Source of the DNA: Ylistrum balloti
Lineage: Eukaryota
Assembly (NCBI RefSeq): GCF_031769215.1
Contig: NW_026782067.1
Location: 682,001-746,000, forward strand
Direction of reading: 5' to 3'
Length of the DNA stretch: 64,000 nt
The position numbers were made by a program. The stretch's first letter is position 1. Every line of letters starts with the position of its first letter. This document shows positions 42,001 to 60,000 of this stretch, one piece after another.

Positions 42001-45000
42001 TTGGTGATTTGATGTACAGCATTTGTATTATATCACTACATAGTACAGCTGTACGTTTATTTATAATTACTATGTATATGGATATTAATTACACTTATTA
42101 TTTACAGGTAATTTCCATCATTGTTGAATTTTTACAGGACGCGAATCACGAGGATGAGACAGATGAAACCAGGACAGAGATTCGTCCTGCACGTCAGCCA
42201 CAAAGACGGCGTGGCACCAGTGGTGACACAGAGGAAGATGAAGATGAGGTGATGCTGTATGGAGCAAAACATGTCATCATGTTATTTGCTCCTGTCACCG
42301 TGTGTATGATAGTGGTGGTTGCCTCTATCAGCTCTGTCACCTTCTACACAAAGAAGTCTGGCTATTTGTAAGTTTACCATCTGATTTCCAAGGTTCAAGG
42401 CCACAGCTGCAAAGTGGTAATTTAGTCTTGCTGAGAACATATCTTACTATTTTTTTTATAAAGGAGTTACATTCAAGTTACATAATCATTGGTATATTTT
42501 CCATTTAGCTTTATTGTTAATAGTTTTGTGAAATGGTAATGACTTGCAAAGTGTCCGAAACAAGTAAAACCCTGTGATTTAAGGTTATATTCATTAGAAG
42601 AATCACTTTCAAAATATGAACTATTTTCTATCAGTGAATAGGAAATTGGTTAAAGTCAGTTATGTTTTCTCTTCAATAAATAAAACAGACAAGTTAATTA
42701 TTTATCCTAATATGTTTAATATAAGTACATGTTATCTTGGTATCAGATCCCTTCCTTTGGACTCCAGAACTCTTGCATATTTCATTTTGTCACTTTGAGA
42801 CTTTCAACCATCTTATTACACACTGTGTTTACATGCAGGGCAGTCAGAGTAGATTAGTCCATGTACAACACTTTAGATAATTGGCTCAGTATGTACATAG
42901 CCTTGTTTTCAATGATGTGATCACCATTCAAAATGCTGGGAAATTGAAATCTGTTATTTTCCAAATTGGTAAAGCTTCAAACTCTGCTAGTATTTTGAAA
43001 ATAACTCACCAGTTTGTAATGACATACCAGGATGATCTCTTGAGAATTTTTTGTTTGAAAGAGTGTAAGATCTGGGTGGCTTCATGCACTATGTAAATGG
43101 TCACAAATGTATGGTACAGTGTTTGTATAAAAATTCCTGTATTTGCTTCAGAATCCTAGTTCCATTGATTTAGAAATGTTTATTTCATATAACTTCAAAT
43201 TCTATCTTTTTTTTTCATTTTCATTGACACATGCTGATGAAAATGAGATTTGATTAGAACAATGGGAGGCAACTCTGTATCATTAAAGAATCAAATCTTG
43301 ATGATATGCCTCAATCAGCTTGCAACTCAAAAATGATATGCCCCTGAAAAGATGCCAGTCTTTTGAAAAAAATTATAAGCCATGTAAAGATAAATTAAGA
43401 CGGATACTGGTATAAGTGACATTTAATTCTCAAAATTTTAGGATATTACAACATTCAATGTACACAAAGGGTATGAAGTGGGATCCTACTGTTTTAGAAT
43501 TATTTAATACTGTTTATATCATTATTCTGATATTGGAGAAAAAAGAAATGGCAAAAGGTTTATAGAGATAAAAGATTAAATAATTCCTTGATTAAATTTA
43601 TTTTATTTGTACTATCAGTTGAATCAGATGAAATTTATAAGAATTTGTAATCATTATACAACTTCAGAGTTGATCATGTGTTACCTGATAAGTTTGGATT
43701 TTACAGAATCTATACTCCATTCCATGACGGTGATAAGGCTGACTCAACCACAGGGACAAAAGTATGGCAGTCATTAGCTAATGCGATGATTCTTCTGGGG
43801 GTGGTGATTGTCATGACAATATTCCTACTCCTCCTCTACAAATACAGGTGCTACAAGTTCATACATGGCTGGCTGGTGGGCTCATCTCTCATGCTGTTGT
43901 TTTTATTCTCCTATCTGTATATTGAGTAAGTAATTTTTTAAATACACAAGAAAGAGTGGCTGTTTATCTGATATGGAAATTAGATTAATTTTAAAATTCA
44001 GATAGATAATCTTCAAGCATGTTAATGTTTTCAAAATCCAGGTTGACACTTGGCTAAACTTCGTACTAAAGTTAAAAAAATTGTCATATTTGACAGAGAA
44101 ATATATACCTATCTGTCTATATGACACAGTGGCATGAAATTTTAATAGCCTTGAGTGTAGTGCTACATAAATTATCTCTTACATCAATGTTGTCCTTATC
44201 ATTACTGTTATCATCTCTGTCAACTAGAAACATAACATTTCACCTGTGTACAGTAATATTTCTTTCAAAAAGTTGAGCTTTTTAAAACACATTTTAGAAT
44301 TTTAGTTGAGGTAACAGCCTGAAAAATCACTACATGGAATGCTGTTGTGTTACATTAAAGTTTGAAGATATCATTAAACTCATTGTGTCATTCTGATCTT
44401 CCATTTGACACTGATATGAATTGTATAGTCATGATTCCAAAAACAGTGTGATATAGTGAAGTAATCATACAATGCAGGTATATACTCCTATGTCTAAGTA
44501 TTAAACACATGTTTTAATCATTCAATAAAAAAAATGATGGATATGCTTAAATGAAAGCAATGACTCATCATTGGAAAAGATGAGAAATTGTTTCAAGCAG
44601 TTTGAAAAATCAGCTGAATGGGTAAATTCAGACTTCTGTCTAGCATATTTAAACCAATGTCAGTGCAGCAGTTGTAATCCCCTTGATTGTTATTACAGAG
44701 TGGTGCTGCAGGCATACAATGTACCAATAGACTACATCACAGTTGCCTTGCTGATCTGGAACTTTGGAGTGATGGGAATGATTTGTATCCACTGGAAGGG
44801 TCCACTTATCCTCCAACAGGCCTACCTCATCATCATCTCTGCTCTCATGTCCCTCATCTTCATCAAGTACCTGCCTGATTGGACTACTTGGGTCCTACTA
44901 GGAGTTATGGTCATTTGGGGTAGGTACCCATGTTTTTCTAGGTATAGTGGCCATCTTGACTAATTTACTGTTAAGTACTTAATGTAATTGTTGTTGTATG

Positions 45001-57000: not shown

Positions 57001-60000
57001 GCTTTCGAAGCCACATATTAACAAAGCGGTAAGTTGGAAGACATTGTAAGAGGTCATCTACTTGAAAAAATAGACCCTGTGTTACAGTTCTACAATGTAA
57101 TTGTGATGATATAGTAGGTTCGAATATTAAATAACAGAATAAGATTATTTCATCACGTACACGATTTGACTATATATTGAACACAGTCTAGACTAAGCAT
57201 TTGAAAATACGCACCAAATCGAACTCCATTGTCTCTGAGTAGTTTACCGTACTCGTTGTCAAGGCTGCTGACCATGTTTTCAAGCTGGTCAGCAAAGTCA
57301 TTTACATCGAAGGGAATGATGAGACTGTCCGCCAGGTTTCGACAAACTTCAGAAACTACCTGGCCCAGGGCTTTGTGGTGCTGTAAAATATTGTATGATG
57401 AGAGAGAGCATTTATAGTCATCGGCTTTCCCGTTAGGTTAGTTACTATGTTCTGTTTCCTCACAAGTGTCGTTCTTGCCTCGGCGTAGGTATTGTATTTA
57501 ATTTACTATCTATGGAGCCTAACATTGGTTACACCCCATACATAAATTATTGTGTTCAGTGTAGTGTAGTAAGTTTTAATATGATTACTGAGTTCCTTTC
57601 AAATAAATGTTTTTGGTAAAAATAACTATTAATAAATTCTGCACTAGAATGAATATTCTAAAAAAAAAAAACCGTTTTGCAAGATAGGAGGACATTCACA
57701 ATCAGACAGTGTTTGGCGGCTGTCATAAACTTGATAATTGATTGTTCAGTACTGTCAAATGAGAAATTTACCTTGAATCCTGTGTCTATGAGCTTGTCCA
57801 CTGCGTAGAAAGTTTCGTACACAGAGTGATACAGTGGATAGGAGCCTAAATCATACTTCTTCTGCAAAAACAACAAAGAAAATACCGACTTCTCAACCAA
57901 ATATTCTAACTCGAGTTCGATCAAACTTCGGCAAAACATGAAAAAAAAAAAAACATTTCAAGGAGTTCCCTGCAAAGAATAAAACAAATGCAATAATACA
58001 ACGGAGATCAATATATAATTGTAATTTATACAATCTCTGAAGGCTCTGGTCCATAAATTATTAGATAATTCATTTCGTTCAATACTATTTTAATCTGAAG
58101 CTCGAATAACACAAAGGTGGAAATAATGTAATGATAATTGTCATGTTAGAATTATTATTAGGCCTCCGACATTTGCAACAAACACTTACCGTATCGTACG
58201 AATAAGACATATCGACACAAGGAAGTCCAACAAACACTTACCGTATCGTACGAATAAGACATATCGACACAAGGAAGTCCAACAAACACTTACTGTATCG
58301 TACGAGTAAGACATATCGACACGAGGAAGTCCAACAAACACTTACCGTATCGTACGAGTAAGACATATCGACACGAGGAAGTCCAACAAACACTTACCGT
58401 ATCGTACGAATAAGACATATCGACACAAGGAAGTCCAACAAACACTTACCGTATCGTACGAATAAGACATATCGACACGAGGAAGTCCAACAAACACTTA
58501 CCGTATCGTACGAGTAAGACATATCGACACGAGGAAGTCCAACAAACACTTACCGTATCGTACGAATAAGACATATCGACACAAGGAAGTCCAACAAACA
58601 CTTACCGTATCGTACGAATAAGACATATCGACACAAGGAAGTCCAACAAACACTTACCGTATCGTACGAGTAAGAAATATCGACACGAGGAAGTCCAACA
58701 AACACTTACCGTATCGTACGAATAAGACATATCGACACGAGGAAGTCCAACAAACACTTACCGTATCGTACGAGTAAGACATATCGACACGAGGAAGTCC
58801 AACAAACACTTACCGTATCGTACGAATAAGACATATCGACACAAGGAAGTCCAACAAACACTTACCGTATCGTACGAGTAAGACATATCGACACAAGGAA
58901 GTCCAACAAACTGCACAAACTTGGCATGATCACTCCCGGCTCCAAGCGATGGAATTCTGTCAGTGATTACATGATTAACAGTTATTCATCACGCAGTTTT
59001 ATATTTTATTTCCACGACTATTGCCGAGGAATCACATGGTAGAGACAATTCAACGGTAATTTCCATGTAAAATTTGTTATATTTCATATCAGTGCATGTG
59101 ACTAAGACATTATCGGAAGTTTGGTTCGTACCTGCTCAAAATTCTGAAATGTATGATATCTGACGGAATGCGCTATAAATTCTCTAGTTAGGAGTTTTTG
59201 TAAAAGTAGTTACTGAATTTGGAGACGCCGTGTGTTTTCTAATGGTAAGATAAACAGTGTTAACCCATTTTGTCATATCTCATCGTGTTTGAATCACTGT
59301 ACTTGATACATAGCTTATTTCCATAGAAATATTTTACGTCTAGGTTAACATTGTGAGCTTACGATTCATGGATTAGTGGTAGCGATTGTGATCTGGACCG
59401 TTCCCATTGTCTAACGGATAAGTATATGTGGTAAGTACTTCTATTGTTAAGAAGATGTAGAAGATGTTACGTGGCAAGTGTGTATAAAGAAAGACAGACT
59501 GCCTTGGTAATTTGACTAGGAATGTTGTCTATGTTATCGAGATAAATCAGTCAAGCGGGAAAGGCAGAATTGGCCCTTTTGTATCTTTTTTAATCCTTTC
59601 TATTTTTTTCTTGTCGCACGAACACTTATCTGGTATACTATAGATATATTATTTGTACAATACTATATCATGATTCGTTATCACTATACAGGCTAAAACA
59701 AGCATTACAAGTATTTCTGGCTGGGACTCAATTACGACGACATACGTACTTTGGTCTGGAAGAGCTATTTGTTGCACTGGTGTAGACCCATTTATCATAC
59801 ACTGTCTTCATCCCTTTGGCAATGTCCTCTGGATTTGGATTTTCCACCTGGAAATATGACATTATCGCAAGACTCTACAGGACAGTATCAAAGTCTCGTC
59901 TCGTTAGAAAGAAGTCTGTTCTAGCATTAAAAAAAAATGTTATTCATGAAATAATTGACCAGAAAATTCTTTTCATTATACCGAAAATAATATCGAGATT

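What the first reader, a model, noticed from the sequence alone, without database searches (positions are those of the whole stretch)
42095..58911. Recurrent theme: local duplication multiplies RNA-processing signals in both genes
Seen: six separate cases within 17 kb, namely two donor arrays, two duplicated acceptors, a U1-mimic/antisense-donor array and an ATTAAA array. Inference and best candidate for an undescribed system: in this genome, in-place tandem amplification hits exon boundaries often enough to create a layer of copy-number-variable splice and poly(A) decoys, and possibly raw material for intron sliding or new isoforms. Chance overlap is plausible given the high repeat density.
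Basis: inference. Interest (0 to 1): 0.65.

Follow-up and report, generated by a model that had tools for sequence, protein, structure and literature searches.

The report
Splice-junction minisatellites in scallop genes
Three neighbouring scallop genes each carry a tandem repeat that started at the end of an exon and so copies its splice donor 7 to 20 times, a curiosity already described in amphioxus and human genes rather than a new system.

Summary
The window is scallop DNA (Ylistrum balloti): presenilin (+), a NAALADase/GCPII-like gene (-) and the first coding exon of an RGS7-like gene (-). About 22% of it is minisatellite.

Of the six cases:
- Two donor arrays are real. Their first unit spans an authentic, conserved exon-intron junction (37 bp x20 in presenilin, 52 bp x14 in NAALADase).
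- One acceptor duplication is real but old and degenerate (presenilin last exon).
- One "duplicated acceptor" is only an 8-mer recurrence.
- The ATTAAA array is at chance level.
- The "U1-mimic" array is a partly palindromic repeat. Its perfect donor motif lies on the antisense strand and it has no link to a junction.

I found a third donor array outside the given range (88 bp x7, RGS7-like exon 1).

Three of 22 donors spanned compares with 0.46-0.56 expected from random repeat seeding (nominal P 0.011-0.048). This is suggestive only, because the window was picked after the fact.

All decoy sites would give premature stops, and the annotated proteins use the first copy.

The kind is already known: amphioxus "mirages" and the human F7 IVS7 minisatellite. 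It is a new member in a mollusc, with no evidence of a dedicated system.

The parts
40895..50661 (+). Presenilin-1-like gene, 10 coding exons (40895-41068, 42138-42367, 43707-43925, 44699-44919, 45294-45392, 47949-48041, 48430-48548, 49873-49996, 50158-50270, 50506-50661 including the stop)
   Evidence: All junctions are GT-AG and the frame is consistent over 515 codons. Pfam PF01080 matched 6 of the 7 exons submitted. All 10 exon translations are found in the 515-aa NCBI protein of Ylistrum balloti, P0001.
45379..46127 (+). Donor-junction minisatellite in presenilin intron 5: 37 bp x20. Unit 1 is the last 14 nt of exon 5 (..ALIYS) plus CGT|GTATGT and 17 more intron nt.
   Evidence: TRF reports 93% matches. 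In the copy table, 16 of 19 decoys keep the same or a better donor. Copy 2 has GT->AT, copy 3 has GTTTGT plus an in-frame TGA at 45455-45457, copy 10 has GTATGC, and copy 7 has GTAAGT. The exon end aligns to the last residue with human PS2 264-295 and PS1 258-289.
50369..50518 (+). Degenerate three-copy duplication of the presenilin exon 10 acceptor plus exon start. Copy A (50369) has lost its AG. Copy B (50410) keeps CCCACAG|G. The real acceptor AG is at 50504-50505.
   Evidence: Use of copy B would add 89 nt and stop after 21 codons. The annotated protein uses the real site.
50774..51212 (+). 30-bp x14.6 array in the presumed presenilin 3'UTR, starting 113 nt after the stop. The + strand reads ACTTACCTG plus TAG|GTAGGT-like motifs; the minus strand reads CAG|GTAAGT.
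   Evidence: TRF. There are 9 exact CAG|GTAAGT on the minus strand and weaker donor-like sites on the + strand. The RNA is partly self-complementary (z = -2.05). There is no Rfam match. The first + strand poly(A) hexamers after the stop are at 52300 and 52995.
54428..54767 (-). 40-bp x8.5 array in the presumed NAALADase-like 3'UTR, with ATTAAA in 6 copies
   Evidence: The hexamers lie 151-431 nt after the stop. A canonical AATAAA is at 54076 and a further ATTAAA at 54085.
54898..63776 (-). NAALADase/glutamate carboxypeptidase II-like gene, residues 336-781 of 781, as 13 exons (63776-63691, 63536-63451, 63047-62928, 61838-61753, 61501-61438, 60223-60156, 59847-59750, 58956-58866, 57861-57772, 57380-57215, 56827-56746, 55893-55801, 55108-54898). 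The gene continues beyond the window.
   Evidence: Coordinates come; all junctions are GT-AG. Pfam M28 and TFR_dimer matched 3 of the 10 exons submitted. All 13 in-frame exon translations are found in P0121.
58176..58911 (-). Donor-junction minisatellite in the NAALADase-like gene: 52 bp x14.2. Unit 1 is the last 46 nt of exon X6 (..GLPCVDMSYSYDT) plus GTAAGT. The array ends with an 8-nt partial unit.
   Evidence: TRF reports 97% matches. 13 of 14 copies read ACG|GTAAGT and 1 reads ACA|GTAAGT. The first in-frame stop is at 58760-58758. The 8-nt continuation is shown. The exon end is conserved against human NAALADL 508-535 and against the Mizuhopecten orthologue.
30598..30720 (-). First coding exon (41 codons from ATG) of an RGS7-like gene. 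The rest of the gene lies beyond the window start.
   Evidence: 85% identity to the Pinctada protein P0130 and to other molluscan RGS7-like proteins. tblastn gives E = 3e-18; no further exon was found in the window.
30029..30675 (-). Donor-junction minisatellite in RGS7-like intron 1: 88 bp x7. Unit 1 is the last 78 nt of exon 1 plus GTAAGTCACT.
   Evidence: TRF; sequence. Each copy still translates to a relative of ..NTLSSAMFGNGQANPEDNPNYLVYKK. All 7 copies keep a strong GT donor, copies are 84-92% identical to unit 1, and an in-frame TAA lies at 30588-30586.
42101..42138 (+). TTTACAGG twice, 30 nt apart, at the presenilin exon 2 acceptor. This is not a duplication.

Best explanation
These are boundary-spanning minisatellites of the kind called "mirages" in amphioxus and exemplified by the human F7 IVS7 VNTR.

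**How they arise.** In a scallop genome that makes minisatellites at a very high rate (22% of this window), a short segment straddling an exon end and its 5' splice site is now and then duplicated in tandem. Unequal exchange or slippage then expands it. Expansion only inserts sequence, so the exon stays joined to the first copy and the other copies become the start of the intron.

**Why they are tolerated.** The spliceosome takes the most upstream of a run of like donors, so the gene goes on working and the array is tolerated as near-neutral baggage. Any use of a decoy gives a premature stop and, most likely, decay of that transcript.

**Why acceptor arrays are rare.** The real exon is joined to the last copy, not the first, so upstream decoys would be met first. 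Such arrays should therefore be harmful, which fits there being only one old, decaying example.

**The other two arrays.** The ATTAAA array and the 30-bp "U1-like" array are ordinary minisatellites in 3'UTR or intergenic DNA. Their units contain these short motifs by chance or through a partial palindrome.

**Shown:** the anatomy, the conserved exon origin of the units, retention of the donors, the stop codons, and agreement of the annotated proteins with first-copy use.
**Inferred:** the mode of origin, the first-copy rule in scallop, neutrality, and transcript decay.
For: **Units derive from ancestral coding sequence, and each array starts inside the exon.**
- Presenilin exon 5 aligns to its last residue with human PS1 and PS2.
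- NAALADase exon X6 aligns with human NAALADL.
- RGS7-like exon 1 aligns with molluscan orthologues.

**First-copy use.**
- All 10 presenilin exon translations and all 13 NAALADase exon translations are contiguous in the NCBI proteins P0001 and P0121.
- The junction peptides match those of other scallops.

**Decoys behave as if unselected in two of the three arrays.**
- NAALADase: 13 of 14 donors are identical.
- RGS7-like: 7 of 7 copies keep GT despite 8-16% divergence.

**All decoys end in stops**.

**Arrays are born locally.** Only scattered shared 10-mers were found, in 27 of 325 array pairs.

**No consistent donor strength.** In the leave-one-out ranking of 22 donors, the spanned ones are 3rd weakest, 5th strongest and strongest.

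**Precedent.**
- PMC3087553 and PMC3902484: mirages at both kinds of boundary, without aberrant mRNAs.

**The other motifs are at chance level.**
- A poly(A) hexamer occurs in 9.5% of random 40-nt units.
- Strong donor-like motifs recur in 7 of 26 arrays against about 2.9 expected; 2 of those 7 are the junction arrays themselves (crude matrix).
Against: - Three of 22 known donors are spanned against 0.46-0.56 expected under uniform or GC-weighted seeding (P 0.011-0.020; 0.018-0.048 if 4-16 donors are unannotated). Pure chance placement is therefore strained, although the window was chosen after the fact and the third exon was found through its array.
- In the presenilin array, the two decoys nearest the true donor are two of the only three with impaired donors, and one carries the only in-frame stop. 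By my arithmetic, 17/969 = 0.018. This hints that decoys are not fully neutral there. However, array edges are known to escape homogenisation (PMC3087553), which would explain it neutrally.
- No RNA data were available, so first-copy use rests on annotation and homology.
- No annotated Y. balloti protein containing the RGS7-like exon was returned.
Confidence: 0.65

Rival explanations
1. Real junction-targeted hot spot. Minisatellite seeds in scallops (as perhaps in amphioxus) arise preferentially at 5' splice junctions. The cause would be some local property such as recombination or repair activity near exons, or RNA-DNA hybrids at unspliced donors. The result would be a genome-wide, copy-number-variable layer of decoy donors.
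For: - About 5-6 fold excess of donor-spanning arrays in this window.
- The excess is barely reduced by allowing for the GC preference of repeat units.
- The amphioxus literature calls mirages possibly "a more general phenomenon" and their mechanism unclear (PMC3087553, section 16).
Against: - This is one window, chosen because it looked odd.
- The third exon was ascertained through its array, so the denominator is too small.
- P rises to 0.05 with 16 more donors.
- No shared motif or microhomology rule was found across the three arrays: 8, 1 and 1 nt.
Confidence: 0.22
2. Selected regulatory device. The arrays of donors recruit U1 snRNP to help a weak donor or protect a long intron, or they tune expression through unproductive splicing. 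The 3'UTR arrays would act on U1 or polyadenylation.
For: - The presenilin donor is among the weakest of 22.
- The RGS7-like intron is longer than 30 kb.
- Presenilin copies 2-3 look disabled.
- The 30-bp array has donor-like sites on both strands.
Against: - Donor strengths of the three spanned sites run from 3rd weakest to strongest.
- The arrays are young and unrelated to each other (84-97% identity within arrays).
- The perfect U1-complementary motif in the 30-bp array is on the strand antisense to presenilin.
- The ATTAAA frequency is at chance.
- In F7 the pseudo-sites neither compete nor act as autonomous regulatory elements (PMC1557585, abstract and Discussion).
Confidence: 0.08
3. Assembly artefact. 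The arrays are collapsed or expanded mis-assemblies and the junction overlap is spurious.
For: Tandem arrays are hard to assemble, and copy numbers may be wrong.
Against: - The copies carry ordered variant patterns and unique flanks.
- The window has no N.
- The exon-to-first-unit continuity reproduces the conserved protein exactly.
- The contig is 789 kb.
Confidence: 0.03

Closest known systems
Human F7 intron 7 37-bp VNTR, and the like in 6-16/IFI6, CBS IVS13, LMNB2 and PDGF (PMC1557585; abstract, Introduction and Discussion read)
   Same: - The first monomer of the minisatellite spans the exon-intron boundary.
- The authentic donor is followed by identical pseudo-sites.
- The upstream-most site is the one that yields the normal mRNA.
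- The presenilin unit is also 37 bp.
   Different: - Here there are more copies (7-20, against 5-9 in F7).
- More exon sequence sits in the unit (14-78 nt, against 4 nt in F7).
- The host is a mollusc, and there are three cases in adjacent genes.
- Splicing outcome and length polymorphism were not measured here.
Amphioxus "mirages" in Adh3, TnC, globins BflGb6/9 and PGBD5 (PMC3087553 section 16 read; PMC3902484 passage read)
   Same: - Minisatellite-like tandem duplications of exon-intron boundaries, at 5' or 3' ends.
- Many copies keep AG/GT signals.
- Regular splicing is apparently undisturbed.
- Edge copies are more diverged.
- They have been proposed as raw material for intron gain.
   Different: - They are described in cephalochordates. 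My search for mirage + minisatellite + splice gave 3 papers, none on molluscs.
- Here, donor arrays outnumber acceptor arrays.
- Allelic or somatic instability was not testable.
Tandem-repeat-associated splicing variation in humans (spl-TRs; PMC10078293, seen only in the search listing and the start of the abstract)
   Same: Tandem repeats near or in genes whose length associates with splicing.
   Different: That is a statistical catalogue of any repeats acting in cis, not repeats born from the junction itself. No association data exist here.
Intron gain by internal tandem duplication of an AGGT-containing exon segment (Rogers model, as cited in PMC3087553 section 16 and PMC2812944 Discussion passages)
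   Same: Tandem duplication supplies extra splice signals.
   Different: - Here the duplications straddle introns that already exist. The unique intron sequence continues past each array.
- No new intron or shifted junction is seen. The protein junctions equal those of the orthologues.

Membership tests
Boundary-spanning minisatellite (mirage / F7 IVS7 type) | Head-to-tail array of units of roughly 10-160 bp | tested here: met
   37 bp x20, 52 bp x14.2 and 88 bp x7.4.
Boundary-spanning minisatellite (mirage / F7 IVS7 type) | The first unit contains an authentic exon end and its splice signal | tested here: met
   Exon models were verified against annotated proteins and homologues. Unit 1 holds 14, 46 or 78 exon nt plus GT....
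Boundary-spanning minisatellite (mirage / F7 IVS7 type) | [quoted passage not shown] | tested here: met
   18 of 19, 13 of 13 and 6 of 6 decoy copies keep GT.
Boundary-spanning minisatellite (mirage / F7 IVS7 type) | The normal mRNA uses the authentic (most upstream) donor only | not testable with these tools
   No transcript data were available. The annotated proteins and orthologue junction peptides fit first-copy use.
Boundary-spanning minisatellite (mirage / F7 IVS7 type) | Length polymorphism or instability between alleles | not testable with these tools
   Only one haplotype is in hand.
U1-binding element acting on the host mRNA (5' splice-site-like sequence in a terminal exon) | A strong 5' splice-site match on the sense strand of the transcript | tested here: not met
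   The 9 exact CAG|GTAAGT are on the minus strand, antisense to presenilin. The + strand has only TAG|GTAGGT or TAG|GTGTGG. There is no U1 or other Rfam match.
Tandem alternative poly(A) signals | Sense-strand AATAAA/ATTAAA in the 3'UTR, more often than chance, with evidence of cleavage | tested here: inconclusive
   6 sense ATTAAA lie 151-431 nt after the stop, but 9.5% of random 40-nt units carry a hexamer on a given strand. Only 2 of 26 arrays carry hexamers in most copies. There are no cleavage-site data.
Intron gain or sliding by tandem duplication | A junction that is new or shifted relative to orthologues, bounded by repeat copies | tested here: not met
   The junction peptides are identical in position to other scallops and to human proteins. 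Every decoy gives a stop.

The most novel reading that the evidence does not exclude
Scallop genomes, like amphioxus, would have a junction-biased process of minisatellite birth. A sizeable share of genes would then carry copy-number-variable runs of fully competent decoy donors. Array length would set how much transcript is lost to unproductive splicing, giving a heritable, fast-mutating dial on gene dosage in highly polymorphic broadcast spawners.
Probability: 0.15. Interest if true: 0.6.

Novelty: new member of a known kind. Interest (0 to 1): 0.3.

Why it matters
If the excess at donors holds genome-wide, scallops would join amphioxus as a second, distant lineage where repeats are born at splice junctions. 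That would point to a real mechanism and offer many natural experiments on how a spliceosome picks one of up to 20 identical donors. As it stands, the three arrays are tidy natural models (identical decoys, known frames, essential genes). They are also a practical warning for gene prediction in bivalve genomes.

Tried and rejected
- **Naive interval test.** Asking what share of junctions lies in repeat-covered DNA was rejected. Expansion inserts sequence and cannot cover a junction that was not in the seed, so I used a seed model instead.
- **GC preference of repeat units.** It is real but weak (beta 5.1, LR 5.1). It raises the expectation only from 0.47 to 0.56.
- **Common repeat family or transposon origin.** Rejected: only scattered shared 10-mers in 27 of 325 array pairs.
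- **Microhomology as a general seed rule.** Found only for the NAALADase array (8 nt); the other two have 1 nt.
- **88-bp units as mini-exons.** My first reading was 42-nt mini-exons separated by 46-nt introns. I dropped it once tblastn showed that the whole unit is a copy of the exon 1 end.
- **30-bp array as a U1 gene or relic.** No Rfam hit anywhere in the window.
- **First guess at the exon upstream of 63776.** It did not fit the annotated protein and was left out of all counts.
- **Pfam on short exons.** It was mostly blind: 3 of 10 NAALADase exons matched.
- **Searches for the phenomenon in molluscs.** None found.

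
Full report
**What the window is.**
- The window has 64,000 bases, no N and 35% G+C.
- Tandem Repeats Finder gives 41 rows. I merged them into 26 arrays covering 14,256 bp, or 22.3% of the window.
- It is not human and not prokaryotic. It holds three animal genes.
- I searched exon by exon throughout.

**Gene 1: presenilin (+ strand).**
- Ten coding exons, all GT-AG, with a consistent frame over 515 codons.
- Pfam PF01080 matched 6 of the 7 exons I submitted; the 30-aa exon 6 gave nothing.
- A search with exon 2 returned a 515-aa "presenilin-1-like [Ylistrum balloti]" at 100% identity, followed by other scallops.
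- All 10 of my exon translations occur in that protein in order, one split-codon residue apart where expected.

**Gene 2: NAALADase / glutamate carboxypeptidase II-like (- strand).**
- Thirteen exons lie in the window, with coordinates read. All 12 donors are GT and all 13 acceptors AG.
- Pfam matched 3 of the 10 exons submitted: M28 once and TFR_dimer twice.
- All 13 in-frame exon translations sit in the 781-aa Y. balloti protein P0121, residues 336-781.

**Gene 3: RGS7-like (- strand).**
- It was found only because I followed a repeat. A 41-codon ORF starting with ATG at 30720-30598 is 85% identical to the N-terminus of molluscan RGS7-like proteins.
- Local tblastn gives E = 3e-18 and finds no further exon in the window. 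Everything from 30597 down to 1 is therefore presumably its first intron.
- No Y. balloti protein with this exon was returned.

**The two donor arrays are real.**

*Presenilin.*
- Exon 5 ends ...PALIYS, and its last base is the first base of a split Ser codon. The donor is CGT|GTATGT.
- The 37-bp unit holds the last 14 exon nt, the donor and 17 more intron nt, and it is repeated 20 times.
- The exon translation aligns to its last residue with human PS2 264-295 (31 of 32 identical) and PS1 258-289. The exon part of the unit is therefore ancestral coding sequence, and the repeat grew out of the junction, not the reverse.
- From memory, and not from a call, this intron position corresponds to the exon 8/9 boundary of human PSEN1.

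*NAALADase-like gene.*
- The 52-bp unit holds the last 46 nt of exon X6 (...GLPCVDMSYSYDT) plus GTAAGT. There are 14 full copies and an 8-nt partial one.
- The exon aligns with human NAALADL 508-535. The next exon aligns with GCPII and GCPIII.
- The junction peptide SYSYDT|KKYDLGSYPLYHS matches the Mizuhopecten orthologue.

**A third donor array lies outside the stated range.**
- The 88-bp array at 30029-30675 (- strand) holds the last 78 nt of RGS7-like exon 1 plus GTAAGTCACT, seven times.
- Each copy still translates into a relative of ...NTLSSAMFGNGQANPEDNPNYLVYKK.

**The other four cases.**
- *Presenilin exon 10 acceptor: real duplication, old and degenerate.* CCCACAG|GGGCTGT... occurs at 50499 (the real site), at 50410 (90%, AG kept) and at 50369 (75%, AG lost). 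Only 0.5% of 3000 sampled non-array 20-mers have a local copy this close.
- *Exon 2 "duplicated acceptor": not a duplication.* Only TTTACAGG recurs. The junction 20-mer has no local copy better than 9 of 20 mismatches, like the other junctions.
- *The 30-bp array:* it starts 113 nt after the presenilin stop. It has 9 exact CAG|GTAAGT, but all on the minus strand, antisense to presenilin and 3.7 kb past the NAALADase stop. The + strand carries weaker TAG|GTAGGT or TAG|GTGTGG. The two motifs are halves of an imperfect palindrome, and the RNA folds a little better than shuffles (z = -2.05). It is no U1 gene or relic (0 Rfam hits in the window).
- *The ATTAAA array:* it has 6 hexamers in 8.5 units, 151-431 nt after the NAALADase stop. 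However, 9.5% of random 40-nt units of this AT-rich DNA carry AATAAA or ATTAAA on a given strand, and only 2 of 26 arrays carry them in most copies.

**Is the junction overlap more than chance?**
- Tandem expansion inserts sequence, so a junction lies in an array only if the original one-unit seed contained it.
- I therefore collapsed every array to one unit. I then placed seeds of the observed periods at random, excluding seeds wholly within coding exons.
- A seed counted as donor-spanning if it held at least 3 exon nt and 6 intron nt.

| Test | Expected | Result |
|---|---|---|
| Same span, any of 43 junctions | 0.80 | P(>=2) = 0.19 |
| Whole window: 26 arrays, 22 donors, 3 spanned | 0.46 | P(>=3) = 0.011 |
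| Whole window, 4-16 unannotated donors assumed | 0.55-0.80 | P = 0.018-0.048 |
| Whole window, GC-weighted seeding | 0.56 | P = 0.020 |

- Repeat units are somewhat GC-richer than background (0.384 against 0.338). That preference is what the GC-weighted test allows for.
- So there is a nominal 5-6 fold excess at donors.
- I hold it as suggestive only, for two reasons. The window was flagged because it looked like this, and the third exon was discovered through its array, which shrinks the denominator.
- No TRF-detected array spans an acceptor (0.39 expected).

**What the decoys would do.**
- *Presenilin:* 16 of 19 decoys keep the same donor or a better one (copy 7 reads GTAAGT at +222 nt, in frame). 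Copy 2 has lost GT, copy 3 has GTTTGT and copy 10 has GTATGC. The consensus unit is open in all three frames. A point change in copy 3 makes an in-frame TGA at 45455-45457, upstream of every usable decoy.
- *NAALADase:* 13 of 14 donors are identical and one differs at position -1. Decoys 2 and 3 shift the frame into early stops in the next exon. Later decoys include the in-frame TAA at 58760-58758.
- *RGS7-like:* all 7 copies keep GT, and a TAA follows 10 nt into the intron.
- *Acceptor copy B:* it would stop after 21 codons.
- No new coding isoform is therefore on offer.

- It holds in 1 of 3 arrays.
- In presenilin, the two nearest decoys are two of the three impaired ones. By my arithmetic, 17/969 = 0.018.
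- Edge copies of such arrays are reported to escape homogenisation (PMC3087553, section 16), which is a neutral alternative.
- Donor strength shows no pattern. By leave-one-out score the spanned donors rank 3rd weakest, 5th strongest and strongest of 22.

**Origin.**
- The arrays are unrelated to one another: only scattered shared 10-mers in 27 of 325 pairs. They are local births, not a mobile family.
- Only the NAALADase array ends with an 8-nt continuation of the unit, which fits slippage between short direct repeats. The other two show 1 nt.
- Identity within arrays is 97% (NAALADase), 93% (presenilin) and 84-92% (RGS7-like), so the ages differ.

**What is known.**
- Borensztajn et al. [quoted passage not shown] They list 6-16, CBS, LMNB2 and PDGF as further cases. 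They show that the pseudo-sites are functional, yet only the most upstream site is used.
- Ebner et al. [quoted passage not shown] They note regular splicing, length instability, diverged edge copies and a model for intron gain.
- PMC3902484 (one passage read) adds amphioxus PGBD5 and TnC.
- PMC2812944 (passages read) links repeats at exon-intron boundaries to novel introns in human paralogues.
- PMC10078293 (listing and start of abstract only) catalogues repeat-splicing associations in humans.
- A search for mirage + minisatellite + splice found 3 papers, none on molluscs. A scallop-centred search gave nothing pertinent among the 12 papers listed of 699.

**Verdict.**
- The core observation stands and is even a little stronger than reported: three donor junctions in three adjacent genes, plus one old acceptor duplication.
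- The interpretation as an undescribed system does not stand. The kind is known, the poly(A), U1-like and exon 2 items do not belong to it, and nothing here shows function or copy-number effects.
- The open point worth a genome-wide count is whether donor junctions are truly favoured seeds in scallops.

Noticed in passing
window 1-30597 (minus strand): This stretch appears to be one very long first intron (over 30 kb) of the RGS7-like gene. tblastn with two molluscan orthologues found no further exon there. The stretch holds 16 of the window's 26 minisatellite arrays.
   Followed up: partly
window 30598-30720 (minus strand): No Ylistrum balloti protein containing this well-conserved RGS7-like first coding exon was returned by the database search. 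The best hit was 85% identity to Pinctada. The exon may be missing from the species' annotation, perhaps because of the array and the long intron.
   Followed up: no
window 45379-46127, 58176-58911, 30029-30675: All three junction arrays have periods that leave remainder 1 on division by 3 (37, 52, 88), as does the human F7 unit (37). With only three cases this could easily be chance.
   Followed up: no
window 55154-55531 (minus strand): A 42-bp x9 array ends 46 nt upstream of the acceptor of the last NAALADase-like exon. It lies just outside the likely branch-point region and does not include the junction.
   Followed up: partly
window 22436-22703: A 67-bp x4 array at 100% identity (very young). 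It carries a donor-like AAG|GTACTG motif in every copy on the minus strand, which is the sense strand of the RGS7-like intron. No coding match was found.
   Followed up: partly
window 5864-6243 and 26848-27126: Further arrays with strong donor-like motifs in most copies: + strand at 5864 and 6068, minus strand at 26848. By a crude matrix built from 19 sites, 7 of 26 arrays have such motifs against about 2.9 expected; 2 of the 7 are true junction arrays.
   Followed up: partly
window 50662-54897: Presenilin and the NAALADase-like gene converge, with 4.2 kb between their stop codons. The first sense poly(A) hexamers are at 52300 and 52995 for presenilin. For the NAALADase-like gene they are at 54747-54467 (inside the array) and at 54085 and 54076. 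The two 3'UTRs may approach or overlap.
   Followed up: no
window 46349-46993: A second, unrelated 53-bp x12 array lies 220 bp after the 37-bp array in the same presenilin intron. Together the two make up about half of the 2.6-kb intron.
   Followed up: no
window 42101-42114: The upstream TTTACAG|GTAATT reads as an acceptor directly abutting a donor-like GTAAT, 30 nt before the real exon 2 acceptor. This is probably a chance motif in a 1.1-kb intron.
   Followed up: no
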